A stretch of DNA of 47,066 bases, the filler included, from Jimgerdemannia flammicorona (lineage: Eukaryota): NCBI GenBank assembly GCA_003990765.1. It is 2 parts of 2 records of this genome, joined end to end, with 100 filler letters (N's around TTAATTAATTAA, not from the genome) between each part and the next. Parts side by side here need not be neighbours in the genome. Positions count along the whole stretch, not along the records: positions 1 to 23,483 come from RBNJ01001102.1; 1 more part is not named here. The stretch is one strand, 5' to 3'. This document shows, one piece after another, positions 1-28,448 of the stretch. The notes below the pieces were generated by a model. It saw only the letters and a list, made by a program, of their open reading frames with translations. It did no database searches and had not been told where the DNA came from. The translations under genes and the position numbers were made by a program. Position 1 is the first letter of the stretch. Every line of letters begins with the position of its first letter.

Positions 1-14
1 GGCTTTGTGCTGGA

Positions 15-2168
15 ATGACACCTCTGCAAATCACAGCATTGTATGGACACTACGGGATAGTACAATTCCTACTAGATGTCTGGCTCATCGATGTCGACAC
101 AAGGGGGAGCGACAGACAAATGGCACTTTTTAAAGCAATACAAAATGGTCATACGTTGATCACAGAGTATCTATGTTCGAAAGGCGCAGATGTAAACGCT
201 GTAGATGACTATGGTAACACCCCATTGCATGTCGTCGCAACACACGGTCGCGCGGCCATTACTGATCTTACAAGTTTTAATCCATTAGGAGGGCCCCATA
301 TTTTTGCTCTCAATCGCCAGAACATTAACCAACAGACTCCACTGCACCTAGCAGTAGAACACAATGCAGATGCGAATGCAGACGACCATAGAGCTGTTGC
401 GCGGTGGCTCATCCACCGGGGCACAGATTGCAATGCAGGTGACCTGCAGGGTCGAATGGCACTCCATCTTGCTATTCTCGCCGACAATTGGATCGTTGTG
501 CAGTACATGCTGTTCCGCAAACGAATACCCCCCAAAAGGGCTATTTTGCTAGCTGTAGCACATGGAACTCCACAACGAGTGAGGTCGCTGTTTGAAATGG
601 TTACCGCGACCCCTATCACACTGTTAGACTGCATAACAAAGGCTACCAAACAACCAAACAAACTATGTGTCATCGACATGTTGCTGACAATGGCCAGACC
701 TGTGGCTGCATTCGAAATAGATTGGGTTCTACATACGGCGATATCGATATACAGCCTTGTGGGCATAGCGGCCGTACTGTGCAAACACGTTACCAATGCC
801 AATTATACTACGATGCATGGATGCACGCTGCTCCATGATCTAGCTGTATACCTGAGTGGATTTCGTGTCATTGCACCCCTGCTACTCGATAGAGGCACAG
901 ACATCAATTTCAAAGATGCACAAGGACGAACGCCGCTCCATTTCGCTGTCTTGAACCAGAGAGACTCATATCTGGTATGGTTGTGCCTCGCAGGTGCAGA
1001 CGTCAACATATCTGACAACCAGATGCGTATGCCGATCCACGACGCTGTAGCCGTAGGGTCCACATTTGGGTTTGCTGTGTTGCGGGCATATGGCGCCAAT
1101 CTCGATGCTGTCGACAAGTTGGGTTGTATACTGCTGCACATATTGCTTGCCGACCGCACAGACTGCGGTCAGACTACAGCTATGGTAGAGTTTTGCAACC
1201 CACCATGCCAGCAGCATCCACCATGGCACTCAACAACACCACTACTGTATGCGCTGCCGGTCGAGATAATGTATAACATATTTGTGTGGCTACAACCATT
1301 ACCACATGGCCATCCCTGTATCAACATCACAGATCTCGTGAACGCGTCGAGGGTGTGTGTCGCGTGGTACGCGATCGCCCGTGGGATGCTCGACGATGTG
1401 ATGGCGTGTCCATTCCCTCCGAATTGCTCTACCTACACGAATCGGATCATTGGGTTCCATGCATTGCTGGAGTCGGCATCGAGGTGGACAGAGCTGCGCA
1501 TGGACTATCACACTGCAGTGACGACAGTCGTCGTGTTTGTGAACACGCTTCATGCCAATCAACTATGCTGTACAGCACTGCTGCAGATCATGGACATCAC
1601 ACGGCCAAAGCATGTGGGTCTGTATCTCGACAACTGCACAGATGCCGAGATAGCATCGCAGATACCATTCTGGACCCAGCTTGCAGGCTGCGCAGGTTCG
1701 GTGAGCGAGCTGCTGATCCGACTTCCGTTATGCAAGTACGCCAATAACATGGTGGGCATGTACATTCATGCTGTTAAAGATACGCTTTCAACAGTAACAT
1801 TAGTTGGTGATGCTGGACCGCTCACATGCAGCGCACTGGCCGACTGTTCCAAGGTTGACACCGCAATGCTCTTTGGGTGTCGGTTGTTAGTTGTTAACTC
1901 GCCTATCAACAACACCCTCGCTGCGCTTCTGATGCTGCGACACGTGCACTTAGGGATTGTAGACGGCGACCTGTCAAATGCTATACAGTGTCTTCTAGGT
2001 TCGTCGCTGGAAGATGTAGTTGTGGTGTGCAACTCGACGATCAGCGACATGGCTGTGGAGACCCTGCTTCGCAAGCTAGATCAGCTAAGACAGCGAAATC
2101 CCCATCTCCAATATATAAGCATAACACATCCTGATAGCATGCGCCGTCTTGTTGAAATAGGTACATAG
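15..2168 (+). CDS. Ankyrin-repeat protein with internal F-box-like motif and LRR-like C-terminus; intronless, probably 5'-truncated by the window edge
   Basis: Multiple ANK motifs (GNTPLHVVA, QTPLHLAVE, GRTPLHFAV, GADVNAVD, GTDINFKD). F-box-like LLYALPVEIMYNIFVWL...ASRVCVAWY. The frame is open back to the window start. Several TPLH motifs are degraded (MALH, MPIH, CTLLH). Confidence 0.85.
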   Translation: MTPLQITALYGHYGIVQFLLDVWLIDVDTRGSDRQMALFKAIQNGHTLITEYLCSKGADVNAVDDYGNTPLHVVATHGRAAITDLTSFNPLGGPHIFALNRQNINQQTPLHLAVEHNADANADDHRAVARWLIHRGTDCNAGDLQGRMALHLAILADNWIVVQYMLFRKRIPPKRAILLAVAHGTPQRVRSLFEMVTATPITLLDCITKATKQPNKLCVIDMLLTMARPVAAFEIDWVLHTAISIYSLVGIAAVLCKHVTNANYTTMHGCTLLHDLAVYLSGFRVIAPLLLDRGTDINFKDAQGRTPLHFAVLNQRDSYLVWLCLAGADVNISDNQMRMPIHDAVAVGSTFGFAVLRAYGANLDAVDKLGCILLHILLADRTDCGQTTAMVEFCNPPCQQHPPWHSTTPLLYALPVEIMYNIFVWLQPLPHGHPCINITDLVNASRVCVAWYAIARGMLDDVMACPFPPNCSTYTNRIIGFHALLESASRWTELRMDYHTAVTTVVVFVNTLHANQLCCTALLQIMDITRPKHVGLYLDNCTDAEIASQIPFWTQLAGCAGSVSELLIRLPLCKYANNMVGMYIHAVKDTLSTVTLVGDAGPLTCSALADCSKVDTAMLFGCRLLVVNSPINNTLAALLMLRHVHLGIVDGDLSNAIQCLLGSSLEDVVVVCNSTISDMAVETLLRKLDQLRQRNPHLQYISITHPDSMRRLVEIGT

Positions 2169-2268
2169 TGAATAAATATATCACGATAGTTGTCTGTAGT
2201 AACGCACAATGACCAAACAACATCGTAGACATCGCCACCCTTGAGCCAGTTCAATTCGTTTATTTGCA

Positions 2269-3633
2269 CTATAAAGTAAAGGCCACAAACGTGACGCCAT
2301 CATCAAGAACCTGACACTCTGTGCCACTATAAAGCGTCACTACAGCACAGCACGTGTCCTGAAATTGGGACGGGAATCATGCGATTTGCTTGCCGTCTAC
2401 TCTAAACTGGACTACATGACAACATTTGTAGTAGGACATTTCCATGATACTGTGTGGGGCAAGTGTAGTGTGTGTGTCATATGCTGTCTTGCTCTCGTCT
2501 GTATACGTGTAGCCAGTCGATCCGAATGACACCCCACATATACGATGACAAGGGCCATCTGTGTTATTGGAGTGCAATACCCGCTCGCCAATGAACCCGA
2601 GCTCCAGAAATGTGGTTTCCTGAAAGGCCCAGCCGTCCACAGATCTCACCTGAATGCACCATGTTATACGACATTTATCCGCATTATCTCTTGTGTTAAT
2701 GATCTGCACTCTTCTAAACTGCATGCGATCAGGATGCTTGTATGATACTGTGTGCTCCTTGTCTGAAATAGTCAGATTGTCCCACATCGCTGTTGCTCGA
2801 CTGAGCGAGGGGTGGGTGGTGTCGGGGCATTTGCAGTGCATCGACACAGTATACGGAAATAAAACGCACGCCAGTGAATCATCAGCTATCGCACAACTGA
2901 TAACATTGAGCCGATGTATGCATATCCTGTCGAGTGCGATGTAACGCATCAGTGCTACTAAGGATGCTTTGTTGCTGATGGTGATAGCGCCATAGGTAAT
3001 CTGCATGTTGCATATGTCGCGAAACACGTGCAAGCAATCTGTGAGCGACGGCAAAGGAGTCTGCTCGCGCCAGACGCAGTTGATCACGGCCAGCAACAAC
3101 ACATGTTCTGGTGTGGCAACGGAGTCGGGTGTTGCAATCAGCAGTTCGAGTGCGTCTGTGGTGAGAGTGTCCAACGTTGTCAACTCAAGGATAGCGGTGC
3201 ATGGCTGGTAGAGCACCGCACTATAGAACGATGCATTAGATATGTCGTTGTGTGCCACTACTGCTACCACCGCATTTAGAAGAGCAATCACAGTGTGTAT
3301 GTCACGAATCGCAGAAATCTGCTTGATGATGGCCTGCTTCAGATCGCCGAACAGCAAAAAATCAGCGGCGTAATACACCCCAACGAGGTCGACACACTCC
3401 ATCGTCGTTGTCTGTATCGTGTACATGAATTCAAGCATGGCTTGTAGCACAATCAAAGATATGCTGCCCAGCATTGTGGTCCTGGACTCTACCTTGCCTA
3501 TGGTGCCAAAAAACATGGCCTTGAAGACAAGACTATGCATGGCGAGGACAAAACTACAAGCATGGATGGTGACACCGTCTGAGCATGTAATCGTCACGTC
3601 GTGGTATATCGAGTCAGCGAGGTCTCTGTACAT
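2269..3633 (-). pseudogene. BTB/POZ(-BACK) protein with SPRY-like C-terminus; probable premature stop at 2377-2379
   Basis: DVTITCSDGVTIHACSFVLAMHSLVFKAMFFG...LQAMLEFMYT...YYAADFL is a BTB domain. The frame continues past the TGA at 2377 (FPSQFQDTCCAVVTLYSG...) to a TAG at 2269, followed by a minus-strand AATAAA. This fits a CGA>TGA change. The SPRY call is tentative. Confidence 0.7.
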
Positions 3634-3850: not shown

Positions 3851-4322
3851 ATGGCCGACTTAAGTGAAATTGATACACTAAGTGATGATGAACATAACTC
3901 TGATGCAAGCTCATCATCCCCACCATCACTACCACCTCCCATCGACACTTCGATGTACCCAAGCGACAAACGAGAAACTCCTCCTTTGTTATTCAACCCA
4001 AATACGAAGATTATATTCATTTTAGGATGTAAAGTTTGGTAGCTCTAGCACAATTACCAATAAATTCGATTGTTGTAAATATTTGTAGGGTGGCTGTGTC
4101 CACAGAATGCAACCGTCACAACTATGTGTGATGTCAGTGTCGTGGGCCTGGAACAACTATGTCACTGATTTGGAATCAACATTGGTTAAACGAAGTTCCG
4201 GCTACCGTAATTCTATATGGATACCACGAGCTGTTTATTATAGCATGCAACTGCATTGCGAATTATCGCAGATACTAATCAACAATGGTCATCCTCCAAA
4301 TTCGACCTGGATCCATGCATGA
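3851..4322 (+). CDS. Possible small hypothetical gene with one intron (~4030-4089)
   Basis: Acidic Ser/Pro-rich ORF 3851-4042 and ORF 4107-4322 can be joined by a GT...TAG intron. No family recognised. Confidence 0.3.
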
Positions 4323-5299: not shown

Positions 5300-6977
5300 C
5301 TATTTTAGTAGCGTATCCCTAAACACCCTATCCACAACTAAGTAATCCACATCTTTCACCGGTATTCCAGAATCACTCTTGAACATCACGCCTCGAAAGT
5401 TTTGTGCAAACTCTTTCAGGTCGTCAAACTTGGGATGAAATGCTGCTAAAACACTAGTTTCGAACAGCTGCGCATTCATCATCCCGGCCTTTAACATCGC
5501 AATACCATGTAACGACCCCCTTGTTCATTCGTCAAGATTGGGTCTATCATGCGATGTCGCGGTTCTACCGTGGTAGCAACAAATCCAAATAAAAACATAA
5601 AAGAGTGACTCGATGTCGTGCGAATGCGTATGCACCTCGTCGCCGAGGAGAACGTGGATTGCCATGAACGGACCAGTCCCAGTGCGATGATGATGCTTGG
5701 TGTTGGACCGCAAATCCTTGATGAACACTGCATAATCGAGGTCGATGATGACCCCATGTCCAGTGGGACCAATAACAATGTTGTTGATGGAGACGTCATG
5801 ATGACAAATTCCGATCCCAGTAAGTTGTTGGAGTCCACCGAGCGCATCGCGCAAGATGGTGAGCAACTCGTGGTGGTTGGCAAAGTCAGTGATTCGTTTA
5901 CCAACCGTCGACATGACTAGTTGCGTGTGGATACGGTATGCCAATTCTCGATCTGTCGGTTGCAAGCCCATCTGGACATCCTTTGTAGTGTTTAGGTCCT
6001 GGTGGTTATAGTACATGGCAACCTTGGCTTGCTTCTGAATCGTGTGAAGACGTTTGGTTGCATATTTCAACAGACACCACTCGGGCTCACGTGTCGACTG
6101 TCGTCATGAGTCTTTGATCACATAGTGTGTGTTTGTCGTGTCACCCAGCTTGGTCACAATCCAAACCGTCATCGCTCGTGTATTGATGCCAGCATTGCGG
6201 TAGATGCACTTCAACAGGGTGAAGGTGTCTAGTCTGATTACAACAACGCGTCCGTTTCGGGTGGTCTGGATGGTATTGTTGAATCCAAACTTGTTGTCTG
6301 CGAGGCCGACAATAATGCGTATAAACAGTAATGGCTGCACATCAATGTCGACGACCTCCGAGCCAATGGCGCCGCTCCGGTCGAATATCCAAACGTGCAT
6401 TCGATGACCACAGATTGTGACCCCTACCATGGCATTGCGGGTGTCCTGTGCACCAAACACCTCCTGGATGTAGCTGGCAAGTTGATAATATGTATCATTG
6501 TTGTTGGCATTCTCGTTGCTCTTGACCTCGAAAACGTGTTGAACATCGGCCCAGTTTGCCACCAACCACTGTCGTCTTCCCTTTAGAAGCGACACCACAT
6601 CCGGTTTGCATTTCGCATATACACCTTCCAGAGGAGTATCGCCATGCTGATGGTAATATACATATAAGCAATTTCGGATTGTGCATTTTGGTAATGATGT
6701 TCGCCAGTTTGGTAATTGCCGTTTCTAGATTTTCACCGCTATCGAGAACAGACCAGCGTGCATTCGTGTAGACCTTGGTCCATTTGCATTTCTTGAAAAT
6801 TGCGTCCATGTCCTTGCTGGGGGGGAATAGCGCATCAATGACCCCAGGAACATTGTGAACTAGACAGTCTTCGAGCTCCATTCGAAGTAAAGGGTCTACT
6901 GTTTCGCGAATGTGTGGTCCAAAGACCGAACCGCTATTCTGTATAACTGGCGTGGGTGCACGTAGTATTGTTTGTGG
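5300..6977 (-). pseudogene. Fungal-type protein kinase FunK1 (Pkinase_fungal), disrupted
   Basis: Motifs KPD, WADV..VFEVKS, QLASYIQEVFGAQDTR, WIFDRSG, YVIKDS[W>*], HHDVSINNI (canonical HRD), IIDLDYA, RTGTGPFMAI, HDIESLFYVFIWIC. In-frame TGA at 6104 and 5525 replace expected Trp residues. Frameshift near 6660. Confidence 0.9.
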
Positions 6978-7210
6978 CTACGACAATTAACAAACATTAG
7001 TATAAATATAAATATATTATTTAATTTACTCTCTATACATATATATATTATATATAACTTATATGAATATGATCTAGCATTTGCAATTCTAACCTTTTAG
7101 CAAGGTCCTTAATGGTGTAGCCATCTACACGGTAATATATAATAATGTTAATATATATATTTATATATTTCACAATATATAATATCATAAGAATTATATT
7201 AATATATTAC

Positions 7211-7603
7211 CAGATCTATACGATGGTGGTTGCTGATGCTGGTTCAGTGAAACTGGTGTATATATTGAAATGTTACATAACCACATGTTGGCAAAATAAC
7301 CTGAACGATATAATTTGATAACATTACTAGGCAGCTTGACATTGATAGGGTTGAATTCACCAATTTGATAGTAGCTGACAAGTGCGTTGAAAGAATTGTG
7401 TTTCCTAAAACAATTCCCATCTAGCTCAGTATCATCGCCAGAATTGGGATGGACAACCCAGAGAACCAGCCGGACATGACTGCAGGTAATATCATCAGGC
7501 ATAGATGTTTTGATTACGAAGCGGAGGTCGTCGATGTCTTTTCCACTGAAATTTCGGAGTTTTATTGCTTGACAGTTTAGAAGGTCGACGTGATACCAAA
7601 TAT
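7211..7603 (-). CDS. Exon encoding a second Crinkler-like ubiquitin-fold header
   Basis: AG acceptor at 7605-7604 gives DIWYHVD...KDIDDLRFVIK...LVLW, resembling the W....DVDDLR.AIK header type. The exon ends TCT G|gtaata at 7211/7210. Confidence 0.55.
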
Positions 7604-7732
7604 CTAAATATCATATAAATATAAATATTAGAAAGACTCATATACTCTACCATTTGCATAGCATCGACCCGCGTGCCTATTTTGTTTTTGTTTTTACACC
7701 ATAATCAACAAAACACATATCTTATGACATAC

Positions 7733-8090
7733 CAGAGGAAGACGTAGTATGGCGCTGTACTATAATAGATATATATTCATTGTCACCAAGTGAATTTGGA
7801 AATACCTTGGCAACTGAATCACTCTCGTGTAATATAGTAGCAGTTGTTGTCGTCGTAGGATCAACTATTTTCCATATAGAAGTTTCGTCGTTATGAAGGT
7901 GAACCTTCCACAACATGATATCCTTTACATCGATACCTTGGAATGTGTGTGGATAGCCCCTAGTTATGGTACTCTTGACGAACTCTATAGTCGAGGTCTT
8001 GTCAATGGTGACAGAGAATGGGCGACTGCCAGGATCGTTGTGGACCACACACCAGAGGGTTGTACCTCTTACTCTTAGTTTCCTAGACAT
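7733..8090 (-). CDS. Crinkler (CRN) effector N-terminal ubiquitin-like header; first exon of a probable CRN-CRN-FunK1 gene
   Basis: TLWCVVHNDPGSRPFSVTIDKTSTIEFVK...FQGIDVKDIMLWKVHL...VAKVFP...ISIIVQ matches the fungal CRN header (LFC.V...F.V.I...LWKV...HIIV). Ends TCT G|gtatgt at 7733/7732. Confidence 0.8.
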
Positions 8091-8663
8091 GACTGATAGT
8101 ACAGCATATATATATATATGAATATATAGCATCAACAATTAAATTCCTGAAATCTACTACTACTTACGTTGTTTGCAAAGAGTGTATTAGCTACCGAAGA
8201 AGCACAATGCTCTATTATGATTGAACTAAAAAGGACTCCAAAACATCTCTATTTTCGGAGATATATCACGAGATCTGGGTCTAGACTTGGCCCATTATTT
8301 TCAAATTTGGGTGTCAGTTCGCGTGATGTCATCATATACATATATATTACGGTCACAAGTTAATAATTGCAGAAATGCCTTTGTCCCAATTTCTTTCTCT
8401 GCACATTATAGTTAGCCATTGACTCGCACGGTATCACATGTAATCCCAGAGATCAATATATATCATTATCAGCTTGGCTGTCATTATTGCAAAATATATT
8501 AAATTGATTGATCAATCGGGTGGTGTTGATGCTCCGTTTTACTCTGTTTTTAAACCAAACGTATAAGCTACAACAAGCAGCAAGGTTTTGAACAATATTT
8601 GGAAAATCAGAGCAATGTTATCCCAATGCTATATATTATAGTGCAAGATGCCCTCCTTCAAAC

Positions 8664-10725
8664 TTATACACCAGATCCCATGGTAATGTACTTGATGTAC
8701 GCCGCCCACGTTGTCGAATTCGGCACCAAAAACCCTTGCACCAGCTTAGTGTAATCCTGTGGGAACAGCCCCTTGATATCGTACTGTTTCAAGGCCTGAT
8801 ACCCCTTCTGCCAGACAACCTTGCCCTTGTTATTTGTGACCGTCAAGTTGGCGTAGTACTGGGTCCAGTCGACCAACATGCCAAACCTATGTGGGTTGGT
8901 TTCGAAATCGTAAACGCGCAGGGCGGGGTTGTTGATGGGAATCACCGAGGGAGCGTTGTTAAGCATAGTGACGATTGGATTAATGGACAGGTCAATATGA
9001 GGAGGGGAACCTCCCATCAAAGTGATGAGAGAGTAGTTGCCCGTGGAGGTTTGATTGCGGACGATGAACGAAAGCATGTCATCTAGCGAAGAAAGCGAAT
9101 GATGAAATAAATAGAGATTGTCGTTTATAGTGCTGGCCAAAAAAAAAACCCAATCACGGAATTCGGGCTGATTACTATTCTTACCATCAGTATGGCCTGT
9201 GAGGTGAGCCTGGATTACATCGGCGAATTCGCCCAACATATTTATATACGCTTTGTAACAGGTAGAGTAGAATATAATGTTGCTTGGAAGATTTGTGCAT
9301 CAACAGTAATTAATCAGGTGTTATTAATATGCTTGTGTTTTTCCAAATGGAGAAAATAATGAATGAACCCCTAAATGCTCATTGACAAAGCTGTGGCATC
9401 TGCTCACCCTTTTCATCATGGGATGGGATGTGACCCCTAGATTATAGATATGAAGCGGCAAATGTCAGAGGTAATAAATGTAAGTCTCACATCCCCCCCC
9501 CCCCTCATCAATCAAAATATACTTACATCAAATATACACTATAGCGACTATGCCTTGCCTTCTGCAAGTTAGCCTGTATCCATTGAAGCTGTACATCCCC
9601 CGCGCTGCCAGCCTTGTCACAGTCTGATACCAGGAGATTTTTGGCATAGAAGTACACAGTATTCATACTGATCACTTGAAGTTTGCCAGGGAGAATATCT
9701 TGGGTAAAATAACCGCCGTTAGTGAATGTTTTACCAAAGTTGAGGTTGAAAGGCGCCCAGAGCTTTGTCAAATTAGTTAAGAGTGATTGCGGGCCAAAGG
9801 CGATTTAGTCATGTAGATATTCATCATTGTTGCCAAGTGTCGGAATCTGGACGAGGTATCGCAACACAACGGACGAACGAATATGAGCGATTGAATTTGA
9901 GTAAATGATCATCTCCAAGCGGGATCGAATACATACAAACTTAACGCGCTTCATGTCAAAGTTTTTGTAGAAGTAATCTACCACCATCTTATGGTCTGAG
10001 AGTATATCCGTACTAGTACGCGGCATCACAACATCGCAATCCTGTGAGTAACAGACGTTAATGATCAGAGCAACTATTGGAATTTCGCTCCATTTGCCCT
10101 CTTTCCCATCACCGACATGCAATACTTATATGACGGGCTGTGTCGCCTGGGCAAATGGTGAACCCAATTATAATGTCAGTTGCAGGTATCTCTATTCGAT
10201 AATGTGTGCATGAGAATGGCTTCCGCAGGTTCAACTTACCAGTATAGATGATAAAATCGATGTTTTGCAGGGCTTCATGCATGAAGCCAAAAGAGGATTC
10301 GACCTGCAGTCCTTAATATCGTCAGTCTCTATCTGTGTGTGTAACACTATGAGAAGTAGCAACCACGCGAGTTGACCAGAAATAAGCCATTACCAGGGGA
10401 ATTGGGCTATCACAATCTGTACCAAGGGCACCATAAACACCGGTAGTGTTATTAGAGGCGAGATTGGATATGCGATGACAAAGCTGCTTAGGATCAGAGC
10501 CCTCTAGATAGGTGGGATCAACATGGATATCTGTTTATATTTGAATAAAATTAAAATTCATTGTGGTAGTAATACAACTGTCTATGAATACATACCAGTG
10601 ACATACAGGAATTTGCCCTCCCAATAGTGGCGACGGTGGGGGAGATCATGATAGGACCAAGCTACGATGGTCTGACCCAACAGGACAAAGAGAGCGATGG
10701 GGGTAAATTGTGTTTTGGCGAACAT
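8664..10725 (-). pseudogene. Secreted calcineurin-like metallophosphoesterase (endopolyphosphatase Ppn1 / acid sphingomyelinase-like), multi-exon, with an in-frame stop
   Basis: Signal peptide MFAKTQFTPIALFVLLG. Motifs KFLYVT|DIHVDPTY, CDSP, DFIIYTG, PTLGNND, VISMNT, QLQW, GHIP, GHT, APSVIPINNPALRVY. In-frame TAA at 9805-9807 (likely CAA>TAA). Confidence 0.85.
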
Positions 10726-12389: not shown

Positions 12390-13328
12390 TTAATCCAACT
12401 GCGGGTATTTCACATACTGGGCCTCAAGTTCATTAATAGCTTGATTGACTAGTTTAACATAACTACACGTGATACTCTTCTCCAAAAGAGGAGTCTTGAC
12501 GGTCTGGTGAATAGTACCCACTTGCTCTCGGAACTTGCTAAGGGCATTAGACATAAATATCAACTCATTTATGTGCACCACGCGTGCCTCCTCAAACGTC
12601 TGGAGCACGTCCAGGTTGTCAGTTAGTAGTTTCTTTTGCATGTGGTTTGCGCCCCAGTCATTCCAGACCTTTGCAAGGGATGCACTTTGTTCATATTGTA
12701 CATTGTTCTCTTTGACAATGACTTCGTAGGCTTTGGCGAGGCATATATCCATCTCTACGAAGTATTTGAGAACAATCCCCACCTGAGAATCGAGAATTTG
12801 CATGCCATTGTTCGCGTCAGTCATCGCATCCTCGAAAATTAATGCTAGGTTTGTCAGGAGCATGACATCGGTATCACTCTTCAGTTGCGTCAGATCCCGC
12901 CGAATCATCCGACTGCATTCGATGAGGAGGCGGAAAATGACAGCCGCCGTGGCCTCCAACGTTTCCATGCTGTAGGCTGCTTGAGTCGTGGCCTTCCACA
13001 GTTGATTCAACGAATTTACAAATATTCTCCTGTGGTCAGGACCCAAGTCCGAATGCTTAACCAGTGACTCGAGGTTGTGCATTGCCGACCGAGTTTTGAG
13101 CAACTCTTGACTATAATTCCCACGCAGGGCCAGGTCATAGGTCTGCACGGTCTCCAAGTGTGCATTGAGATGTGTGATTATGTTGTGGATTTCGATGAAC
13201 TGAGGAGGTGGTAGTAGCGTGCAGGCATGGCCGAGCACTTGCACCGCATTAAACTGACATATAATGTCAGTGGAAATAGGGAATAGGGCCAGGAGGCATC
13301 CGAGCCCTAGCACTAAACTCGACGCCAC
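12390..13328 (-). CDS. Hypothetical helical/coiled-coil protein with N-terminal hydrophobic segment; probable upstream exon reaching ~13540
   Basis: 312-aa ORF preceded by a ttttccag acceptor, with heptad-like helical composition. Confidence 0.6.
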   Translation of the reverse strand: MASSLVLGLGCLLALFPISTDIICQFNAVQVLGHACTLLPPPQFIEIHNIITHLNAHLETVQTYDLALRGNYSQELLKTRSAMHNLESLVKHSDLGPDHRRIFVNSLNQLWKATTQAAYSMETLEATAAVIFRLLIECSRMIRRDLTQLKSDTDVMLLTNLALIFEDAMTDANNGMQILDSQVGIVLKYFVEMDICLAKAYEVIVKENNVQYEQSASLAKVWNDWGANHMQKKLLTDNLDVLQTFEEARVVHINELIFMSNALSKFREQVGTIHQTVKTPLLEKSITCSYVKLVNQAINELEAQYVKYPQLD

Positions 13329-13573
13329 GATCGTGCGCCTGGAAAATAATATTTCTACAAATGAAATAATTGTTAGTTGATGATATACATAGCATTACTC
13401 CAATACGATCACCTAGTTTATGCAAACATATACCATACAAAACTAGAAATTTTCTAAGAACATAAGGCCACAATGATGCTAGTTTCTCAATGATAGGTGG
13501 CATTGTGATGAAGCTAGTGGCATCGTCGAACATATCCATGATAGTGATATATATATATGTGTTGTGATGTCGA

Positions 13574-13638
13574 TGTCGGGGAAAGTGCATTCACGTGGAC
13601 GGGATAATCCCGTCCACGTGAATGCACTTTCCCCGACA
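13574..13638. repeat. Palindromic element copy 1 (perfect; 32-bp arms around a central A)
   Basis: TGTCGGGGAAAGTGCATTCACGTGGACGGGAT-A-ATCCCGTCCACGTGAATGCACTTTCCCCGACA. Confidence 0.97.
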
Positions 13639-13912: not shown

Positions 13913-14812
13913 TTACAAAGCCCAATTTTCCAACATGTATGCTCCTCGCGACGCCTTCAAACACTCCTTATTAAAGCACAACTCAATTCCCCAATACGCT
14001 CTTGCACATTGATTCCCACAAACCTGGCAACACCCGCCCTTGAAACACGTCCTCAGCAGCCCTACGCTCGAGAAATTCAGGCCCCCGTGCACTAGCCTTA
14101 TCGCCTCCCCACATATCCTACAGCATTTCAGTACCCAACACTCTTCCACCTCACACACGGCATAGGCGTTTCTCCTCCCATCCATGGGGTCCTGCTTCCA
14201 GATGAGCCTACCGTTGCACGCCCAACACCGGTGGCCCTCGTGTGGGAAATAGTTTGGACAATCTACTACGTTGCAGTGGTACACCACTTCTTTAATTGAA
14301 AATTGCGAACAGGACTCGCACTGTTTGTAGTGGGGGCAGGCGAGTAGCGCCGATGATATGTCCAAGTACGGTTCGGAGGATGCAGATTGATGGTTTGTAT
14401 TCGGAAGGATGGTTCGCTCTTTGACTGACAATATCATAAAGGATGGTAGGGGGTTGGAGTGTGAAACTGGCACGTCGAGATCTAGACCCTTTGTGTGACT
14501 TTAAATACGTTGACATGTGTGGTATCTCCTTACCATCCATATAGGTCAGGTCGAAATATATATGACAATAATAATTGTTACCACAATTGAACGTAGGTTC
14601 GATTTTTGGATGCATTCCTAAATAATCCCACGATTTGGTGTACCATTCGACATTGGATATAACAATCGAAACATTTTAACAATGCGAACAATGCCAGCAT
14701 ATTGCCATATCACATCGGGATCTGGATTGTTGACAAAGAGAGCGAGTCCTTCTAGATTTATAGCTCGAAAAGTCGTCAATTGACAATATGGGTTGGGTTG
14801 TTGGCTCTCCAA
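13913..14812 (-). pseudogene. Cys-rich, putative zinc-binding protein gene, disrupted
   Basis: Many CxxC/CxxxxC pairs (CESC, CNVVDC, CWAC, CEVEEC, CRIC, CQVC, CFNKEC) in 13913-14473. The upstream ORF is broken by a TAG at 14618-14620. Exon structure uncertain. Confidence 0.5.
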
Positions 14813-15078: not shown

Positions 15079-15147
15079 AGCGTCAGGGAAAGTGCATTCA
15101 CGTGGACAGGATTATCCCGTCCACATGAATGCACTTTCCCCGATGCT
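15079..15147. repeat. Palindromic element copy 2 (34-bp arms, central T, CpG-type mismatches)
   Basis: AGCGTCAGGGAAAGTGCATTCACGTGGACAGGAT-T-ATCCCGTCCACATGAATGCACTTTCCCCGATGCT. Confidence 0.95.
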
Positions 15148-15200
15148 GACGCCATGACATGTGATCGATACAACCCCCAAGCCTCCTGAAACTGACCAAT

Positions 15201-15563
15201 ATGAAGATAAATATGACTAAAATCAAGGTCAAGGAGGAGATGAAATATATTGTTGAGTCTGGCGGACTAAGGGATGATGAACGTCATGGTGTAGTGGAAA
15301 CATTACCTGAATTTATCATCTTTACGGTTCGATGGTTGAACGACATGTCCCACACCATCAGGATAGCGAAGATGGCCGATATTGGTGAATTGTTGCACAT
15401 GCTTGAGACGCAGCATAATCCGAAAGGTAAAGATTTCATTCTGAAGAGGAAAGATGACAACAAACTTATCCCAATAGATGTCAACGATGAGAGCGTCACC
15501 CTGGAGAAACTTGAAGTCACTCCTCAGTGGATCCTTGTCATGGAGCCGGATCTAGAATCTTGA
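15201..15563 (+). CDS. Small protein with a probable ubiquitin-like (beta-grasp) domain
   Basis: FTVRW...HTIRIAKMADIGELLHML...FILKRK...DESVTLEKLEVTPQWILVME follows the Ubl/UBX pattern. AATAAA follows the stop. Confidence 0.55.
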   Translation: MKINMTKIKVKEEMKYIVESGGLRDDERHGVVETLPEFIIFTVRWLNDMSHTIRIAKMADIGELLHMLETQHNPKGKDFILKRKDDNKLIPIDVNDESVTLEKLEVTPQWILVMEPDLES

Positions 15564-15744: not shown

Positions 15745-16477
15745 ATGGCATACCTCGAGTTACCATCCTTCTCAGACAAATTATATTTATCCCAAGCTTC
15801 CGATCTGACCCTATTAACACTATGCCTGAACACAGATCTGGCGCGCTTCAAATATGTCACCGGCAGAATCACTGAACTTATCATTCAATTGAGCACTCTT
15901 TTGCGAGATGACATCTGTCAAAATGTGCAGAACATTATCTCAAATCTTCCAAGATTAACGCATCTCCATGTCTTCGACATCATGCCTGGTCAATTTGAGA
16001 GAATCTTTACGAGCATCACAATCACATTCAAAGACCTTATTGAAATTCGACTGAGTCAGATTGTAGCTTCTGACGAATTCTTGGAATTCATTTCCAACAA
16101 TCCAAGTATTCAATGCGTGCAATTCACTGGTATATTATTATTGTGGTTTATGCCTTGGATATTTACATGCATAGGTTATATAACGGTTTTCTAACGATTT
16201 CTCCTGTACAGATGCCTTAGATTCGTCCCTGGATAATTCGTTTTTAATTCGGCTCATTCAGTGCTACCAGCTTCGGAAATTGATCATAACAGAGGCGCGC
16301 CACAACATAATATCATTCGACAACCTCGTAAAGGCGGCAGACGAATGGAAGGACAATTTTTGGTTAATAATCAGATATGATGATAATGAATTGTCGCCGC
16401 TACTGGAATGCACCATGTGTGGGTGGAATGGTAGTAATAGTTGTGTTTGCGATAATTGGAACGATGGTTCAACATAG
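15745..16477 (+). CDS. LRR/RNI-like protein, one intron (16130-16212)
   Basis: LPRLTHLHV, FKDLIEIRL, NPSIQCVQF, CYQLRKLII. Splicing G|gtatat...tacag|AT joins the two ORFs in frame. Confidence 0.6.
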
Positions 16478-16565
16478 TACGACGTCTCAACTTGTAATTT
16501 ACAACAGTCACATAATATAAATATGAGACACCCACATACACACATTTCCAATCTTTCAACTCAAT

Positions 16566-17156
16566 ATGCATGACACACTCGAACTCGACACATTGGAGTT
16601 TGAGAAGCACCTTCATGCACTGGAAATCCAGTTATACCGCCAAAAAATCCTCGATATCGACACCATCTTCAGGTATATAAAGAAACTCGAACATCGAATG
16701 AGATGGATAAATGTCAACCTTGCTGCTGTTCGGTATAACTTTAAACATATTGATGTGATACTGCCACGTGTGGAGAGGTTCATATTGAAGGTGGATGTGG
16801 TAAAGTCAGGACAGGAGCTGGTGTCCAAATGGAATACGTACGACGTGACCGCTTGGTCCTTGGTGCAGATGGAGTGGGGGAAAGCAGTTGCATGCATGTT
16901 TGGGAACATTATTAGAGATTTTGAAGTCGCAATCGCATATATGAGGTTTATGGAGAGAACGGCAGAGACAGCCAGAGCCAATCTCAGTAACATGGCTATT
17001 GTAATCAAAATGCGCCAGGCCCGGGATATATTCATCAAAGGCAATGGTGATAGACTGGCGAGGAAGACGGTTGAGGAGGCAGTTGGTGATGTTGAAATAT
17101 TTTTCGAAACAATTAAGGCAGATATTGAACGGCTGCAAAATGTACCCGAACGCTAA
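16566..17156 (+). CDS. Hypothetical alpha-helical protein, 196 aa, intronless
   Basis: Clean ORF followed by AATAAA. No family recognised. Confidence 0.6.
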   Translation: MHDTLELDTLEFEKHLHALEIQLYRQKILDIDTIFRYIKKLEHRMRWINVNLAAVRYNFKHIDVILPRVERFILKVDVVKSGQELVSKWNTYDVTAWSLVQMEWGKAVACMFGNIIRDFEVAIAYMRFMERTAETARANLSNMAIVIKMRQARDIFIKGNGDRLARKTVEEAVGDVEIFFETIKADIERLQNVPER

Positions 17157-17906: not shown

Positions 17907-18914
17907 ATGACAGAATCCGAAATTCCTGAGTTGGTGATGTTTCGTGATGTGTGTTTTGGTATACTGGAAGACGGGGGTGTGGTACCTCCAACACATCCAT
18001 CACAACATACCCCAGCAAATGTGTTACCTCAGACACTTCCACCACGACGTGCCCCAGCAAATGTTATACTAGAGGCTCTAATCAATCTATGGAATGACCA
18101 AACGGAAACTGCCAATGATGATGATGATGAGCATGCGCAAATGGTGAAAACATTTACAAAAGCGCTTACGTACTACACCCTCCACAAACCAATGGCACAA
18201 CTCATTACCGACCAGAAACAGGACCTGACGTACCTTGAAAAGCGCAACAGTGAGTTGCGCGTCAGGATAAAGGAATTGAAGGCGGGGAATGTGGCAGCCC
18301 AAGAAATTTCATCGGTGATGACAATGGATCGGTCACCAAAGCAAGCCGAATTGATATCGCGAGTGACGGATCGTGCAGTCAACGGGCGCGACAAAGGTAA
18401 ACCGCACAAGTATGAAACACTGGGATATAAATCTCATAGTGATCATTGCAAATTACATGGCTTTGACTGCAAGACTTACAAAAGGTATTTTATCTGTTTC
18501 GTGATTTCCGAATTGTGTGTGTGTTATCAATCAAACTTATTAGAGTATATATATGTCATAAGGTTCTACAATATAACAGGTGGCCTCCCAGTAGATATAC
18601 ATGGACCCCAGTTCCGATATTCCTTACATGCCAATACTGACAGTCGTTGGCGTTGGTTAGACCTTATGTCGAGGTATCAGAAGAGACATACCCTGCCCAC
18701 AGAGCCACCAGGGTTCTGGACCATGGACTTTTCCACCGAGGATAAGATCAAACAATAACAGGAGGATGGCAGACGCATCAATCGTGAAAAAAAGAAGTGG
18801 GAATGGTCGCCCTCACCTGGTATTGGGCACAGTCAACGTCACCGAACGCCACTGAAACGTCGATCAGGTTCACTGACTCTATCACCAATATCTGATTTTG
18901 AATATTTTGTGTAG
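17907..18914 (+). pseudogene. Hypothetical coiled-coil protein gene; probable intron ~18485-18562 and probable premature stop at 18756-18758
   Basis: The frame continues after the TAA (CAA TAA CAG) for ~50 codons to a TAG at 18912-18914, followed by AATAAA. Confidence 0.5.
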
Positions 18915-18990
18915 TTTAAGAACTATTGTTACTATTGGCAAATAAAATCGAATTCACACAATAAGCAATAACGTTAATCATGGCGTCGAC

Positions 18991-19053
18991 GTCGGGGAAA
19001 GTACATTCATGTGGACGGGATAATCCTGTCCACGTGAATGCACTTTCCCCAAC
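18991..19053. repeat. Palindromic element copy 4 (31-bp arms, central A)
   Basis: GTCGGGGAAAGTACATTCATGTGGACGGGAT-A-ATCCTGTCCACGTGAATGCACTTTCCCCAAC. Confidence 0.95.
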
Positions 19054-19180
19054 ACCACACGTGATATATGATTCTGCTTTAATAATTTGTAGATCATCGT
19101 CATTATGTCGACAAAATTGTAAGGCTTTATATATATATACACAACACAATTTTAAGGTACTAACAAATATACATATTATT

Positions 19181-19760
19181 ATGAATCTATTCAACGACAT
19201 TGGGGCCAGCCTTGGTGGTGTTACCATTGTGATTCTAATAGTCTTTGGGATTGTTACCATACCGCTCGATATCTACAACATAGTAAATGCCTCTAATGGT
19301 CTTAAAATGTACCCAATCATAGAACCATGTTGGGGTAGCGGACAGCTCTACACATTTCTAATCAGCGTCATTGTCAGTGCTGCGCTCTCTCTTGTCCACA
19401 TGCTTGCAGTCTGCTGTCGCTCAGAGCCGTCCAACAACCAACACTTGTCTAGTAGAACTATGGATAGTTTAACAGGCATGTTTTTGCTTATCTGGACTAT
19501 TATAGGTAGGCGACCTTATACACCCACCGCACTGCTGTGTCTGCCAGTTTGTCCAGGCTGTAACATATCCGTTTGAATTAGGTACTGTCTGGGTTTCGAG
19601 TGCCCGCTCATGCCAATCGGAATTTCTATTCTACTACGAAACGGTCATACGATCGCTCATAATCATGTACATTGACTGTGTAGTGGGATTGATCGTGGTT
19701 ATTTTTGGCCACTCAGCTCTATGTTGTATTAGGCTTAGTAATGCCCCCCCAACTGTCTGA
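19181..19760 (+). CDS. Four-TM membrane protein (TMEM272-like), intron 19506-19581
   Basis: The spliced product reads ...GMFLLIWTII|GTVWVSSARSCQSEFLFYY...IIMY and has four hydrophobic segments. Family assignment is from motif recall only. Confidence 0.65.
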
Positions 19761-19932: not shown

Positions 19933-21045
19933 CTAGCTCGTAGATGATGATATTGCTTGTGCAATTGTCAGACGCGTCAATGGGGTTGTGAGTTGCATGC
20001 TGCTCTGAGCTCCATCATCGTCCCACAGAGTGACCAACCAATGCACAGTGAGCATCCAAAGCAATTGCCGTTCTGGTCTCCCGAACGACGCCAGCTGCAG
20101 CACATCTGTTGGCCTGCTGTGCAGGAATCTGTGAAGACAGTTTACACCGACATCGTCAGCCATGTGGTTGCGCAGCTCGTCGTCAACGTCATCCACATGC
20201 AGGTGGGTGTAGAACTCGGGAGAGAGTATGTAGCTGAGAATCGCATCTGTGGTTGCTAGCATGTATCTAAACTTATCACTCAGATGCTTCAACATTCGCC
20301 GAAGCTGGTCTGGATGTCCGCCGGATGAGTTAAAGACGGCGTCCAAAATCACATTGTGGTCGACAGACTTCGCGACCTGTTGACCAACGAGGGCGAGTCG
20401 CGGTGTCACCACTGTAACTTCATTCCGTGTCAAACACAGCCATCGCATGCTCGTGGCACGGATGTACTGCAGTGGAAATATGTTGCTGTTGTGTTGATTG
20501 GGGTCAAGTCGCGACAGGAGTAGGATTTGCAGATGCTGTCCTGGCTCCACATGTAGATGCCACCAGAAGTACGGCACGTCCAGTCCAGACAGGATATCCA
20601 CATCGTCGATTATGAGGCGTACGGTCGAGTTTGCATCTGTGTGTTGCAGCCACGTTGTCATTGTTTTGGTTTTCGCGTGCCAGTAATTGCTGAACACCGT
20701 TTCTGGATTCGGTATCCTGCTGTTGATCACGAACTCTGACAGCGAAACATACATGACAGACTCCTCGTCATGCTGCAACCCAATATGCTCGATGAGCTTG
20801 TATGCAAGTACAGTTTTACCTGACGAAGGTGGACCACAGACAACAAGCACCTTACAGGTCTGCCAAAGATCAAACAGTCCAGTTAGTCGAAGCGGTGAAA
20901 TGTAACATGCATCGTTGATGGTAGTGTCTTTGACATTGTATCCATCGTCTGAGAACAATGGAGCCTGCACCTGACGTAACTTGGGCCTGTGTGGATGCCG
21001 AACTGGTACTCTTTTCAATATTCTCCCACTGCGAAGTGTTATCAT
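19933..21045 (-). CDS. P-loop NTPase (AAA+/STAND-like, resembling Crinkler-associated NTPases), intronless
   Basis: Walker A GPPSSGKT, Walker B LIIDDVD, and a GxP-type motif SGGHP. Confidence 0.75.
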   Translation of the reverse strand: MITLRSGRILKRVPVRHPHRPKLRQVQAPLFSDDGYNVKDTTINDACYISPLRLTGLFDLWQTCKVLVVCGPPSSGKTVLAYKLIEHIGLQHDEESVMYVSLSEFVINSRIPNPETVFSNYWHAKTKTMTTWLQHTDANSTVRLIIDDVDILSGLDVPYFWWHLHVEPGQHLQILLLSRLDPNQHNSNIFPLQYIRATSMRWLCLTRNEVTVVTPRLALVGQQVAKSVDHNVILDAVFNSSGGHPDQLRRMLKHLSDKFRYMLATTDAILSYILSPEFYTHLHVDDVDDELRNHMADDVGVNCLHRFLHSRPTDVLQLASFGRPERQLLWMLTVHWLVTLWDDDGAQSSMQLTTPLTRLTIAQAISSSTS

Positions 21046-21151
21046 TTAACAAACAGTGTAATGCTGATGATGACTCATATTTATGACAATGTAATAGGTT
21101 GTATTTGCTCATTTATTTGGATTGACAGAACTCAAATTCATCATTACAACC

Positions 21152-22666
21152 TCAATCATCAGGAGTGGATCCTTCCATCACAAATTCGCCATACTCAGCC
21201 TCGATCTTGGCTGCAGCCTCCTGTTTGTTTTTAATTTGCAGGGCCTCAGCAGCTTCCATTCTCAGTTTCTTTGCGTTGTTTCTACTTGGTCTGATTGTCG
21301 TGTCGTTTTCGTAATCTCTCTGACCATCCTTGCGCAACCCAACGTCAATATCGAATTTGTCCAGATAGAACCCAGGTAAGGTCCACCGTCCGCAACTGCA
21401 CAATGTCCCCTCTCTGACACGTTTACCCAGTAATTCATTGCAGTTGGAGTTGGAACATGTGATGTTACCACTGTTTAAAAATGCACCAGAGCCCCACATC
21501 TAGGCCATGGCCTGAATATGGTATTGATCGCAGTTAGGGCCAATACCACCTGTTAGGTCTGATGAAATATAGGAATCGTAGAGTAAATAATGGAAAGAAA
21601 GGTAATTTGAAATTTACAATAGTACACTATACTAGTTACCTTTGTCTTTTTGCGAATGGATCATCATGTTATCTAGTCTTGCTAATCCCCATCTGTAGTA
21701 GTAGTGGCCGATCAGTTTAATTATCTACCAAATAAAAAGACAAACATTTAAAAAGGCTAAACACTCACTTGCAGTGTATGCAGCATATTAACGTTTCATT
21801 GGGATCCGGTTCCGGATTTCCTGTTGTGCTTTCTGGATCTTTGCTGAAGTCGCCTATTTTATAGGACTCCCCAACTGATGTGTGTGATAGCAATTAGGAT
21901 CCATAGATGTGTAGATAGGCATCGACACACACACTGCATACATACATAATGGGTTGAGATCAATCAGGAACTTTGTGTAGGTCGAGTTACTTGGATCTAA
22001 CACTATCCCCATATCCTCATACAGATCCAGCTGAGCACGGAAACTTGAGTTGGGCCTTCAAAAAAGAGCTAAAATAGTGAGATAGTGCAGGCAGAGCATT
22101 CACAACAAGAATATACACGCTATCACCCCATACACACTTTGCCTGGCTCCACATATTTCTGATCATATCAAGAAGTTTGTTGACCGATTTCCCATTCAAC
22201 GGGTACTTCATGAGATATGCAATGACTAGTGTGACACTGCGTGATATTCCCTGCTCGCAATGCATGAGCACCGAGTTTCCACTAGTACACGCATCATTAA
22301 TAAATTGTGTGCCAGAGTCCAGATGTTGTATAATGTTAGTATCTTTTTTATCTGGAATGTTGATAACCATGTGTTGCATAACCTACAGGGATGAGAATTT
22401 TAATAGTGCGTTGAATATATACTATATTTAGTCAACATAGTACGTCTTTCGTACCTTTGGGAAAACGCTATTGGAAGTGTCACAGACTGACACTATAACG
22501 TTGATCCTCTTGCTGTTGATCTCATTTTGAGATGTAGCAGTATCGAGTCTATTAGACAGGTTGTTAGTTGTATGTGGATGGGGCTCTGGTTGACTACATT
22601 ACTCTCAACATACCCGCTTAGGAATAGACCATTGAACACTTCGACTGCTGGATCTGCGACTGACAT
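21152..22666 (-). pseudogene. YVH1: YVH1/DUSP12-like dual-specificity phosphatase with zinc-binding domain; multi-exon, nonsense codon
   Basis: GLFLSG, HCEQGISRS (CX5R), IAYLM, PNSSFRAQLDLYEDMG, CCIHCK, CDQYHIQAMA*M (TAG at 21500-21502 where YVH1 has Trp), ITCSNSNC..LLG, CSCGRWTLPGF. Confidence 0.85.
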
Positions 22667-22827
22667 CCTGCTAACGACGATTCAATACATGTACTCCCTA
22701 TTTTAAATTTAAATACTCTGTATATGATAATGACCACGTAAAACGACATATTTATTTAGTCATATATACGACAAATCATGACTTCATAATTTTAGTGTAT
22801 ACAGGTCGTATGTTGTATAAACAGTAG

Positions 22828-23483
22828 CTAGAAACAGTCCTGTCCAATAGTGTCAAGTTGGGCCCACAATGCTCTATCGAATGTGAGCTGGATTACTGAA
22901 CTATATTTGCTGATGACTGCATCTGTAAAGCCGCTTTGCCCCAGCACCTTTGACAACTCTGGATCCGTTAGCAGAGATGCTGGAAAGACGACCCGTTCAA
23001 GTTTCTGACATTCTTGTAGTGCCCGTTGCACAAACATCGCCTCCATGCTATACCAGTCCTTTACCTCTAGTGATTTTAATTCGGGCCATGGCCAATCGAC
23101 AGGCATTTTTAACATCCCGTTACTGTGGAATCTTGGGTGTTTGAGTTCTTCAAGCCTTGGACAGTATTCCATCAATACCTCCAAATCATCTTCATTAATG
23201 AGGCTGAATCCACTCCAAGTGGTTTTTTTATATGTCTGCACATGTTTGAGATTTGGACAATTCACTACAAGGATTTTAAAAACGGTGTGGAAGATTTCCA
23301 GATCCCAATAGTGATGATTGATTGTCTGTGTGATTGACAGATCCTCCACCATTGGAAACATATTAAAGTGTGTCTGCAAACGCGGTATACTGCGCCAACA
23401 ACGTGTATCTAATATTGTAATTCGCTGCAACTGTGGCCAGGATGGCAACAGACACCACATAATTTCGATGCCAACAGTCTGCA
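22828..23483 (-). CDS. LRR/RNI-like (F-box-associated) protein, 5'-truncated by the gap
   Basis: WPQLQRITI, FPMVEDLSI, CPNLKHV, CPRLEELK, WPELKSLEV, CQKLERV. Confidence 0.7.

Positions 23484-27451: not shown

Positions 27452-28448
<997 letters not shown>

What the first reader, a model, noticed from the sequence alone, without database searches (positions are those of the whole stretch)
1..23483. Whole left block looks like cargo of a silenced giant mobile element or endogenous large DNA virus
Seen: about 20 tightly packed short genes with mostly short spacers, many intronless, no intact housekeeping gene, in sharp contrast with the right block. It is enriched in ubiquitin-system modules (ANK/F-box, BTB, two LRR, Ubl), Crinkler-type parts, kinase/phosphatase and orphans. 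Established: ankyrin/F-box/BTB expansions typify large DNA viruses, and FunK1/CRN/NTPase genes typify TE-rich accessory regions of fungi. Limit: no capsid, DNA polymerase B, packaging ATPase, integrase or recombinase is visible in this window.
Basis: inference. Interest (0 to 1): 0.7.

Follow-up and report, generated by a model that had tools for sequence, protein, structure and literature searches.

The report
Cargo arm of Starship-like giant transposon
This stretch is the cargo part of a decaying, multi-copy jumping element of at least about 118 kb in a root-associated soil fungus; it resembles the Starship transposons so far reported only in other fungal groups, carries its own DNA polymerase and recombination genes, and shows no sign of a virus coat gene.

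Summary
The left block is one whole contig (C1102); the 'contrast with the right block' comes from an artificial join. The block is still real mobile-element cargo. It has two further colinear copies at 90-95% identity and older CpG-depleted ones, while a control housekeeping gene is single-copy. Its four intergenic ~65-bp palindromes recur on 24 of 35,354 contigs. These contigs overlap into one network of about 118 kb. One end carries an inward-facing tyrosine recombinase that passes the DUF3435 (Starship captain) cut-off, and five copies end there with different flanks, three of them at the same codon of a CHAT-NLR gene family. The network also encodes a Pol-delta-derived polymerase, Rad52, Mus81-like, Sae2-like and exonuclease genes. 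No capsid or packaging ATPase was found. The far end was not found, no single contig holds both recombinase and window genes, and self-replication is inferred. The scan earlier noted the recombinase-polymerase end on other DNA (e1-7415832); the link to this block, the size, copy number and target site are added here.

The parts
1..23483 (.). Whole contig C1102: internal cargo segment of the giant element; both ends are contig breaks, not element ends
3..2168 (+). Ankyrin repeat + F-box-like gene, open frame, 5' end off contig
   Evidence: Pfam Ank 1.9e-29, F-box-like 1.7e-5
2377..3633 (-). BTB/POZ gene, 418 aa, one open frame
   Evidence: Pfam 6e-16
4139..4150 (.). Remnant of a palindrome whose core is deleted here but full in copies C7689 and C11610
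4275..5033 (-). Orphan, 252 aa, present in three copies
   Evidence: no Pfam, NCBIfam, PHROG or Atlas assignment; fold uninformative
5300..6881 (-). FunK1-type fungal protein kinase, in pieces in different frames (ends approximate)
   Evidence: PF17667 1.3e-40 and 1.2e-21
7194..8132 (-). Crinkler-type N-terminal pieces (7722-8132 confirmed, 7194-7502 not)
   Evidence: PF20147 2.9e-14
8664..10713 (-). Acid sphingomyelinase-like gene, multi-exon (5' part placed by eye)
   Evidence: ASMase_C 9.8e-13; paralogues C4837, C4116
10848..11963 (+). DUF4097 gene, intronless; host paralogue on C472 has GT-AG introns
   Evidence: PF13349 1.3e-13
12390..13361 (-). Helical protein, intron-lost relative of a tandem host family on C25 (5' end approximate)
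13574..13638 (.). Palindrome 1: perfect 32-bp arms, 1-nt centre
   Evidence: -43.7 kcal/mol, z=-15.5
13913..14500 (-). Cys-rich orphan (5' end approximate)
   Evidence: no Pfam hit
15079..15151 (.). Palindrome 2
15201..15563 (+). 120-aa gene, Ubl-like by eye only; scattered further copies in the genome
   Evidence: no Pfam hit
15745..16480 (+). LRR-like gene by eye only (3' end approximate)
   Evidence: no Pfam hit
16566..17156 (+). 196-aa helical orphan with a paralogue on C6615
17282..17360 (.). Palindrome 3
17907..18758 (+). Sae2/CtIP-like C-terminal domain gene (DNA end and hairpin processing family)
   Evidence: PF08573 E=0.019 here, 4.1e-5 and over cut-off in copy C5154; five element copies plus one short match elsewhere
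18984..19054 (.). Palindrome 4
19172..19700 (+). Small membrane protein by eye (the ORF listed from 18980 reads through the palindrome)
   Evidence: no Pfam hit
19933..21045 (-). AAA/STAND-type NTPase, 370 aa, one open frame
   Evidence: PF00004 1.8e-5
21152..22690 (-). Dual-specificity phosphatase with Cys-rich tail, multi-exon, in pieces (ends approximate)
   Evidence: DSPc 3.6e-18; paralogues
22828..23483 (-). 3' half of an LRR-like gene; longer in copy C5154
   Evidence: E=0.009
23484..23583 (.). Artificial spacer (N-run, TTAATTAATTAA, N-run) joining C1102 to the unrelated contig C1103

Best explanation
The block is an internal cargo segment of a giant (at least about 118 kb) tyrosine-recombinase element, present as about three young and two or three older copies in an Endogonales fungus. 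Shown: multi-copy colinear block; shared palindromes; overlap chain to a DUF3435 recombinase-Myb gene that faces inward from a sharp end; five different flanks at that end; decay by C>T changes. Inferred: (1) the recombinase excises and integrates the element at a short target motif, often inside CHAT-NLR genes, through a circle as in Starships; (2) the element's own Pol-delta-derived polymerase, Rad52, Mus81-like, Sae2-like and lambda-type exonuclease genes copy the excised form by recombination-dependent replication, with the palindromes as cruciform origins or recombination sites (weakest step, about 40%); (3) host genes were captured, some losing introns, and the ANK/F-box, BTB, kinase and phosphatase cargo acts on host ubiquitin and signalling pathways; (4) after insertion the host methylated the copies and they decayed.
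For: Copies: C7689+C10230+C10114 and C11610+C15638+C5154 cover the block at 90-95%, C89 at 79-91%, C6800 at 85%; control UTP10 has 1 match. Palindrome half-site: 70 matches on 24 of 35,354 contigs, 0 for the reversed control; all 24 were fetched and join through alignments of 400 bp or more. C89 holds 12 kb of window-homologous DNA with pieces of the polymerase arm on both sides; C10083 fuses the recombinase 5' part to C1343-type DNA; C13066 holds window and C1343 pieces. Recombinase: P0121, which matches C94 at 99% over one exon, scores 43.8 bits on DUF3435, cut-off 25.8; its relative P0123 scores 50.1; R, YxxRR, H and Y motifs visible; Myb repeats follow. End: five copies stop within a few bases of one point; three flanks start at the Arg before 'LAFLSAC' of a CHAT-NB-ARC family with 161 matches, and for C3107 and C2582 an uninterrupted paralogue is closer (96.5%, 78%) than the other copy's flank (66%). 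Polymerase: named hits among the best 120 are Pol delta-type cellular polymerases at 36-43%; motif LVKDVDYI shared with 20 of 120 hits and the host; transition-only pN/pS 0.19-0.46 against the two young copies. Decay: 434 of 606 window-private changes are C>T/G>A, 244 at CpG, 53 transversions, in 22,139 columns.
Against: No single contig holds both the recombinase and window genes; the link runs through C352 and the rearranged, decayed C89. The far end and any direct repeat were not found. A DUF3435 profile search of the genome found 0, with silent controls, and single exons score under the cut-off. No helicase, primase, PCNA or Pol-delta accessory subunit was identified in the network. Rad52 (E=1.5e-4), exonuclease (E=1.6e-4 and 6.9e-4) and Sae2 hits are weak. 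The polymerase is a very long branch of unsure position. Copy assignment of short contigs rests on abutting coordinates. No expression or methylation data.
Confidence: 0.75

Rival explanations
1. Remnant of an endogenous large DNA virus (Nucleocytoviricota, mirusvirus or an unknown group) that integrates with a tyrosine recombinase; the virion genes lie in unsampled pieces or are too divergent to detect.
For: Gene-dense, largely intronless, ANK/F-box/BTB-rich content; polymerase plus lambda-type exonuclease plus annealing protein, and interspersed palindromes, recall herpes-, baculo- and pithoviruses (baculovirus and herpesvirus points recalled; pithovirus repeats PMC10664404, passages); intron-lost host genes; many orphans remain unassigned.
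Against: No capsid, A32, D5, VLTF3 or RNA-polymerase family among 365 ORF queries to Pfam (includes redundant copies, antisense frames and some flank genes; one sub-threshold poxvirus A30L hit, E=0.017). A32 search of the genome 0 of 1 with a control ringing; NCLDV capsid search 0 but controls silent. Polymerase is fungal Pol-delta-derived, no relative confirmed in viral contigs, palindrome absent from viral contigs. Recombinase gene has spliceosomal-type introns.
Confidence: 0.1
2. The block is an accessory host region amplified by segmental duplication. The palindrome is an independent MITE-like repeat, and the recombinase-polymerase island is a separate, smaller element that became adjacent in C89 by rearrangement.
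For: C89 is rearranged and invaded by an LTR element; most cargo genes have paralogues elsewhere in the genome; no single contig joins recombinase and window.
Against: The palindrome is confined to the network rather than scattered; sites are orthologous between copies and the two 'empty' alleles aligned keep outer-arm remnants, so they are deletions rather than pre-insertion sites; both arms show similar copy number and identity tiers; three separate contigs bridge the arms (C89, C13066, C10083).
Confidence: 0.11
3. The copies are alleles or haplotypes of several nuclei or individuals in one sample, not paralogues.
For: Fragmented assembly of 35,354 contigs.
Against: UTP10 has one match and the host Pol delta appears once, as exons; recombinase-end flanks differ between copies; differences are strongly C>T-biased.
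Confidence: 0.04

Closest known systems
Starship giant transposons of Pezizomycotina (DUF3435 captain; PMC11162782, passages read; DUF3435/MYB hybrids PMC12256816, passages read; circular intermediate bioRxiv 10.64898/2026.09.21.753150, passages read)
   Same: DUF3435 recombinase as first gene at one edge, facing inward; Myb domain attached; tens of cargo genes; about 100 kb scale; multi-copy target preference; decayed copies.
   Different: Host is a Mucoromycota fungus, whereas PMC11162782 reports no Starship recombinase outside Dikarya; carries a Pol-delta-derived polymerase and recombination genes ('polymerase' occurs 0 times in the main text of PMC11162782 and PMC12256816); regular palindromes; target inside a protein-coding NLR family rather than 5S rDNA or AT-rich DNA; direct repeats and far end not shown.
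CryptonF elements, including Rhizopus (PMC3212892, passages read) and Glomhopper/CryptonA (PMC13465315, passages read)
   Same: Intron-bearing tyrosine-recombinase gene in an early-diverging fungus; Atlas neighbours include NDC10_II and DUF3435 clusters.
   Different: Those are small elements with GCR1_C or DUF3504; here the recombinase hits DUF3435, is followed by Myb repeats and heads more than 100 kb of cargo.
Giant endogenous viral elements and Mycodnaviridae (PMC13533422, passages read)
   Same: Dense, intron-poor, orphan-rich DNA with a family B polymerase and a possible YqaJ-type exonuclease.
   Different: No major capsid protein, D5 primase-helicase, A32 ATPase or capping enzyme found; polymerase is of fungal Pol delta type.
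Interspersed palindromes of pithoviruses (PMC10664404, passages read) and baculovirus hrs (recalled, no call)
   Same: Near-identical intergenic palindromes every few kb, restricted to the element.
   Different: No sequence likeness tested; single 65-85-bp units with a 1-nt centre; no target-site duplication seen in the two empty sites aligned; function untested.

Membership tests
Starship | DUF3435 tyrosine recombinase (captain) | tested here: met
   P0121 43.8 bits and P0123 50.1 bits against cut-off 25.8; single exons score below it
Starship | Captain is the first gene at one boundary and faces inward | tested here: met
   homology of five copies ends just upstream of the probable start, placed by eye
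Starship | Large cargo, over 15 kb, moving with the captain | tested here: met
   30 kb contiguous on C94; about 118 kb by overlap chain; this block is linked indirectly
Starship | Short direct repeats at both ends and an empty site | tested here: inconclusive
   uninterrupted CHAT paralogues show the empty site; far end not found
Starship | Recombinase nests within the captain clade | not tested
   no captain reference set was retrieved; relatives found were four proteins only
Starship | Excision and circular intermediate | not testable with these tools
   no sequencing run was listed
Nucleocytoviricota endogenous element | Double jelly-roll major capsid protein | tested here: inconclusive
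   0 Pfam hits in network ORFs; genome search 0 with silent controls; network may be incomplete
Nucleocytoviricota endogenous element | A32 packaging ATPase | tested here: not met
   0 matches in the genome, control rang in 1 of 14
Nucleocytoviricota endogenous element | Viral-type PolB | tested here: not met
   named hits among the best 120 are cellular, at most 43% identity, search limited to 754-2150-aa proteins; fungal motif shared; none confirmed in viral contigs
Nucleocytoviricota endogenous element | D5 primase-helicase, VLTF3, RNA polymerase | tested here: not met
   no such Pfam family among 365 ORF queries; no genome-wide search made for these
Mirusvirus or other HK97-capsid virus | HK97 capsid, portal, terminase | tested here: inconclusive
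   no such hit for 47 ORFs in PHROGs; no mirusvirus profile available
Polinton/Maverick | Protein-primed PolB, rve integrase, terminal inverted repeats | tested here: not met
   polymerase is PF00136 Pol delta type; the only mobility gene identified is a tyrosine recombinase
CryptonF | YR plus GCR1_C, small element | tested here: not met
   Myb repeats follow the recombinase, no GCR1_C hit; element far larger

The most novel reading that the evidence does not exclude
A capsid-less giant eukaryotic element that both integrates by a Starship-type recombinase at a preferred site inside NLR immune genes and replicates its excised form with its own Pol-delta, Rad52, Mus81-like, Sae2-like and exonuclease kit from palindromic origins: an intermediate between giant transposons and nuclear DNA viruses, in a phylum where Starships were reported absent.
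Probability: 0.35. Interest if true: 0.92.

Novelty: new variant of a known kind. Interest (0 to 1): 0.76.

Why it matters
Starship recombinases were reported absent outside Dikarya and were proposed to be a Pezizomycotina innovation (PMC11162782). A DUF3435-headed element of over 100 kb in Endogonales would push their range or origin back to early-diverging plant symbionts. Its polymerase and recombination genes bear on the open question of how such elements gain copy number and move between hosts. Repeated insertion into one codon of CHAT-NLR genes gives a concrete target to test and links the element to fungal immune-gene turnover. It also warns that ANK/F-box/BTB-rich intronless contigs in such genomes need not be viral.

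Tried and rejected
Far end: terminus compared with all fetched contigs, CHAT upstream half searched and 20 candidate regions read; none showed the other end. Left neighbour of the ANK gene: only the query contig matched. NCLDV capsid and DUF3435 profile searches of the genome: 0, controls silent, so uninformative. Palindrome in metagenome and viral collections: 0. Sequencing runs: none was listed. Longer homologues of the recombinase: none at E<=0.01. Orphan 4275-5033: Atlas best 0.81 with low recognition, single-sequence fold pLDDT 30.7. The 'ERCC4 pair' on C94 noted in e1-7415832: no Pfam or PDB hit for those two frames here; a separate Mus81-like gene on C5283 is firm. PDB search of the exonuclease-like frame gave only chance hits. 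RIP was considered and set aside: changes concentrate at CpG and the TA/AT ratio is 0.70. The palindrome as a fresh MITE was set aside. My notebook's '29 contigs' for one search is a miscount; the list gives 24. Eight literature searches listed no paper describing such an element; listings and abstract starts only, subscription papers and preprint supplements not covered.
Full report
What the window is. Positions 1-23483 are the whole of contig C1102 of the own genome (231 Mb, 35,354 contigs). Positions 23484-23583 are an N-run, TTAATTAATTAA and another N-run, and the right block maps to contig C1103. The right block holds ordinary genes (tRNA-Leu, L30-family, ubiquitin-L40, UTP10, GH5), but it is not the neighbour of the left block. 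The host is an Endogonales fungus: a protein matching the linked recombinase is named as Jimgerdemannia flammicorona by its source.

Gene content. Pfam confirms ANK plus F-box-like, BTB, a fungal kinase in pieces, one Crinkler N-domain, a sphingomyelinase C-domain, DUF4097, an AAA/STAND NTPase and a DSP phosphatase; 10 of 23 frames had no hit. The Ubl and one LRR call were not confirmed. The 17907-18758 gene has a Sae2/CtIP-like C-terminus, weak here and over the cut-off in copy C5154. Two genes are intron-lost relatives of host genes: DUF4097 (GT-AG introns on C472) and the 12390 gene (C25).

The block is multi-copy. DNA searches and pairwise alignments show two further colinear copies at 90-95%, broken into C7689+C10230+C10114 and C11610+C15638+C5154, and older partial copies on C89 (79-91%), C6800 (85%), C13066 and C1421 (73-80%). 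A 4.3-kb UTP10 control has one match, so these are not haplotypes. In three-way comparisons over 22,139 columns the window has 606 private changes: 434 C>T/G>A, 244 of them at CpG, and 53 transversions. Old copies have a CpG ratio mostly of 0.0-0.4 against about 1.0 in flanking host DNA, with a sharp step on C856. This fits methylation-driven decay after insertion (inference). Pooled pN/pS of window genes among young copies is 0.40, or 0.61 on transitions only, with 12 new stops: some selection before decay, though CpG bias can lower this ratio.

The palindrome. Four near-perfect palindromes of about 65 bp lie between genes of the block and none in the right block; the first folds at -43.7 kcal/mol, z=-15.5. 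A 26-letter half-site pattern matches 70 times on 24 contigs, the reversed control 0 times. A relaxed full pattern finds 52 copies on 27 fetched contigs. Sites are shared between copies; at the two missing sites aligned, outer-arm remnants stay, so these are deletions. The pattern is absent from the viral and metagenome collections.

The larger element. All 24 contigs were fetched and overlap into one network of about 118 kb non-redundant, a lower bound from hand-set intervals. One arm runs on C94 from a recombinase gene through an LRR-like gene, a family B polymerase, TPR, BTB, an exonuclease-like gene, Rad52, PP2C and GH31, and continues through C352, C10981, C9602, C15866, C10127 and C5283 (VIT-vWA, Gti1-Zn cluster, HD, F-box, FYVE, NB-ARC-TPR, RNase III, Mus81-like). 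The window joins it by three bridges. C89 carries 12 kb of window-homologous DNA with pieces of the C352/C94 arm on both sides and C1343-type DNA between. C13066 holds window and C1343 pieces. C10083 fuses the recombinase 5' part to C1343-type DNA. No single contig has both recombinase and window genes; this is the main gap.

The recombinase end. The gene is multi-exon, shows R, YxxRR, H and Y motifs and is followed by two Myb repeats. The database protein P0121 scores 43.8 bits on DUF3435 (cut-off 25.8) and its relative P0123 50.1. The region has matches on eight contigs, about six copies. Five copies end within a few bases of one point upstream of the probable start, with different flanks. 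Three flanks begin at the Arg codon before 'LAFLSAC' in the CHAT domain of a CHAT-NB-ARC family with 161 matches. The C3107 flank is 96.5% identical to an uninterrupted paralogue but 66% to the C2582 flank, while its element end is 92-93% identical to copies with unrelated flanks, which points to independent insertions. A short RCTNG core is seen by eye in all five flanks. The far end was not found.

The polymerase. Named hits among the best 120 are cellular Pol delta-type enzymes at 36-43%, with fungi first. It shares LVKDVDYI with the host and 20 of 120 hits, has no introns in the two domain frames read, unlike the host gene, and forms a very long branch of unsure position in a 36-row tree. 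Transition-only pN/pS against two young copies is 0.19-0.46. Catalytic motifs are seen across copies; each copy examined is partial or carries stops or frame breaks.

Virus test. None of 365 ORF queries to Pfam hit a capsid, A32, D5, VLTF3 or RNA-polymerase family (the set includes duplicates, antisense frames and some flank genes, and misses short broken frames). PHROGs (47 ORFs) and NCBIfam (63 ORFs) gave no structural gene beyond coiled-coil-type hits at E about 0.03. A32 is absent genome-wide with a control ringing; the capsid search was blank but uncontrolled. A virus with an unrecognisable coat, or coat genes in unsampled pieces, is not excluded.

Mechanism. Most likely a Starship-like element: the recombinase excises a circle and inserts it at a short motif, often in CHAT-NLR genes (circle shown for Starships in bioRxiv 10.64898/2026.09.21.753150, passages read; inferred here). 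The polymerase, Rad52, Mus81-like, Sae2-like and exonuclease genes are the enzyme types of recombination-dependent replication (recalled), and the palindromes could extrude cruciforms for them; I put self-replication at about 40%, as no helicase or primase was found. The window is cargo aimed at ubiquitin and phospho-signalling, now decaying.

Comparison and novelty. It works like a Starship and meets three defining features; direct repeats are inconclusive and the phylogeny untested. PMC11162782 (passages read) reports no Starship recombinase outside Dikarya; DUF3435/MYB hybrids are known in ascomycetes (PMC12256816, passages read); CryptonF occurs in Rhizopus but is small with GCR1_C (PMC3212892, passages read). 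Eight searches listed no description of such an element. Verdict: new variant of a known kind, interest 0.76.

Noticed in passing
window 23585-25693 (start of C1103): A 2.1-kb fold-back: nested inverted arms about 80% complementary around a 241-bp centre, next to a tRNA-Leu gene at 25922-26004.
   Followed up: no
window 28052-28188: 24-bp tandem repeat, 5.8 copies, apparently inside an intron of the ubiquitin-L40 gene.
   Followed up: no
L062:2130-4643 (C3107) and 160 further matches: Very large host CHAT-NB-ARC family, some members with Sel1 and ankyrin tails, many with stops; it is the element's repeated target.
   Followed up: partly
L058:2-991 and L020:2317-3261: Element gene with a Cys-rich start, long coiled coil and C-terminal membrane segments; resembles Kar5/GEX1 nuclear-fusion proteins by eye (recalled); no such Pfam hit.
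   Followed up: no
C89:8754-18638 and C3107:1914-10937: The same LTR-type element with about 660-bp terminal repeats has inserted into two different copies of the giant element, once inside the recombinase gene.
   Followed up: no
C856:15595 (L049): A heavily CpG-depleted partial copy abuts what reads by eye as a host asparaginyl-tRNA synthetase gene, with a sharp step in CpG ratio.
   Followed up: partly
C1421 (L026-L028): A 7.7-kb element present twice in inverted orientation, 81.5% alike, beside a window-homologous piece.
   Followed up: no
L011:1285-3204 and L016:3671-5329: Two related long genes of the element with CRN-type C-terminal domains by eye and paralogues on C469 and C1479; no family hit.
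   Followed up: no
P0122, P0124: Two unnamed metagenome proteins are 40% and 30% identical to the recombinase exon, so relatives exist in environmental samples.
   Followed up: no
C94:30150-30300 (L004): The recombinase-side end has an 18-bp perfect palindrome and short direct repeats; a 33-bp look-alike lies inside the element on C15866/C15869.
   Followed up: no
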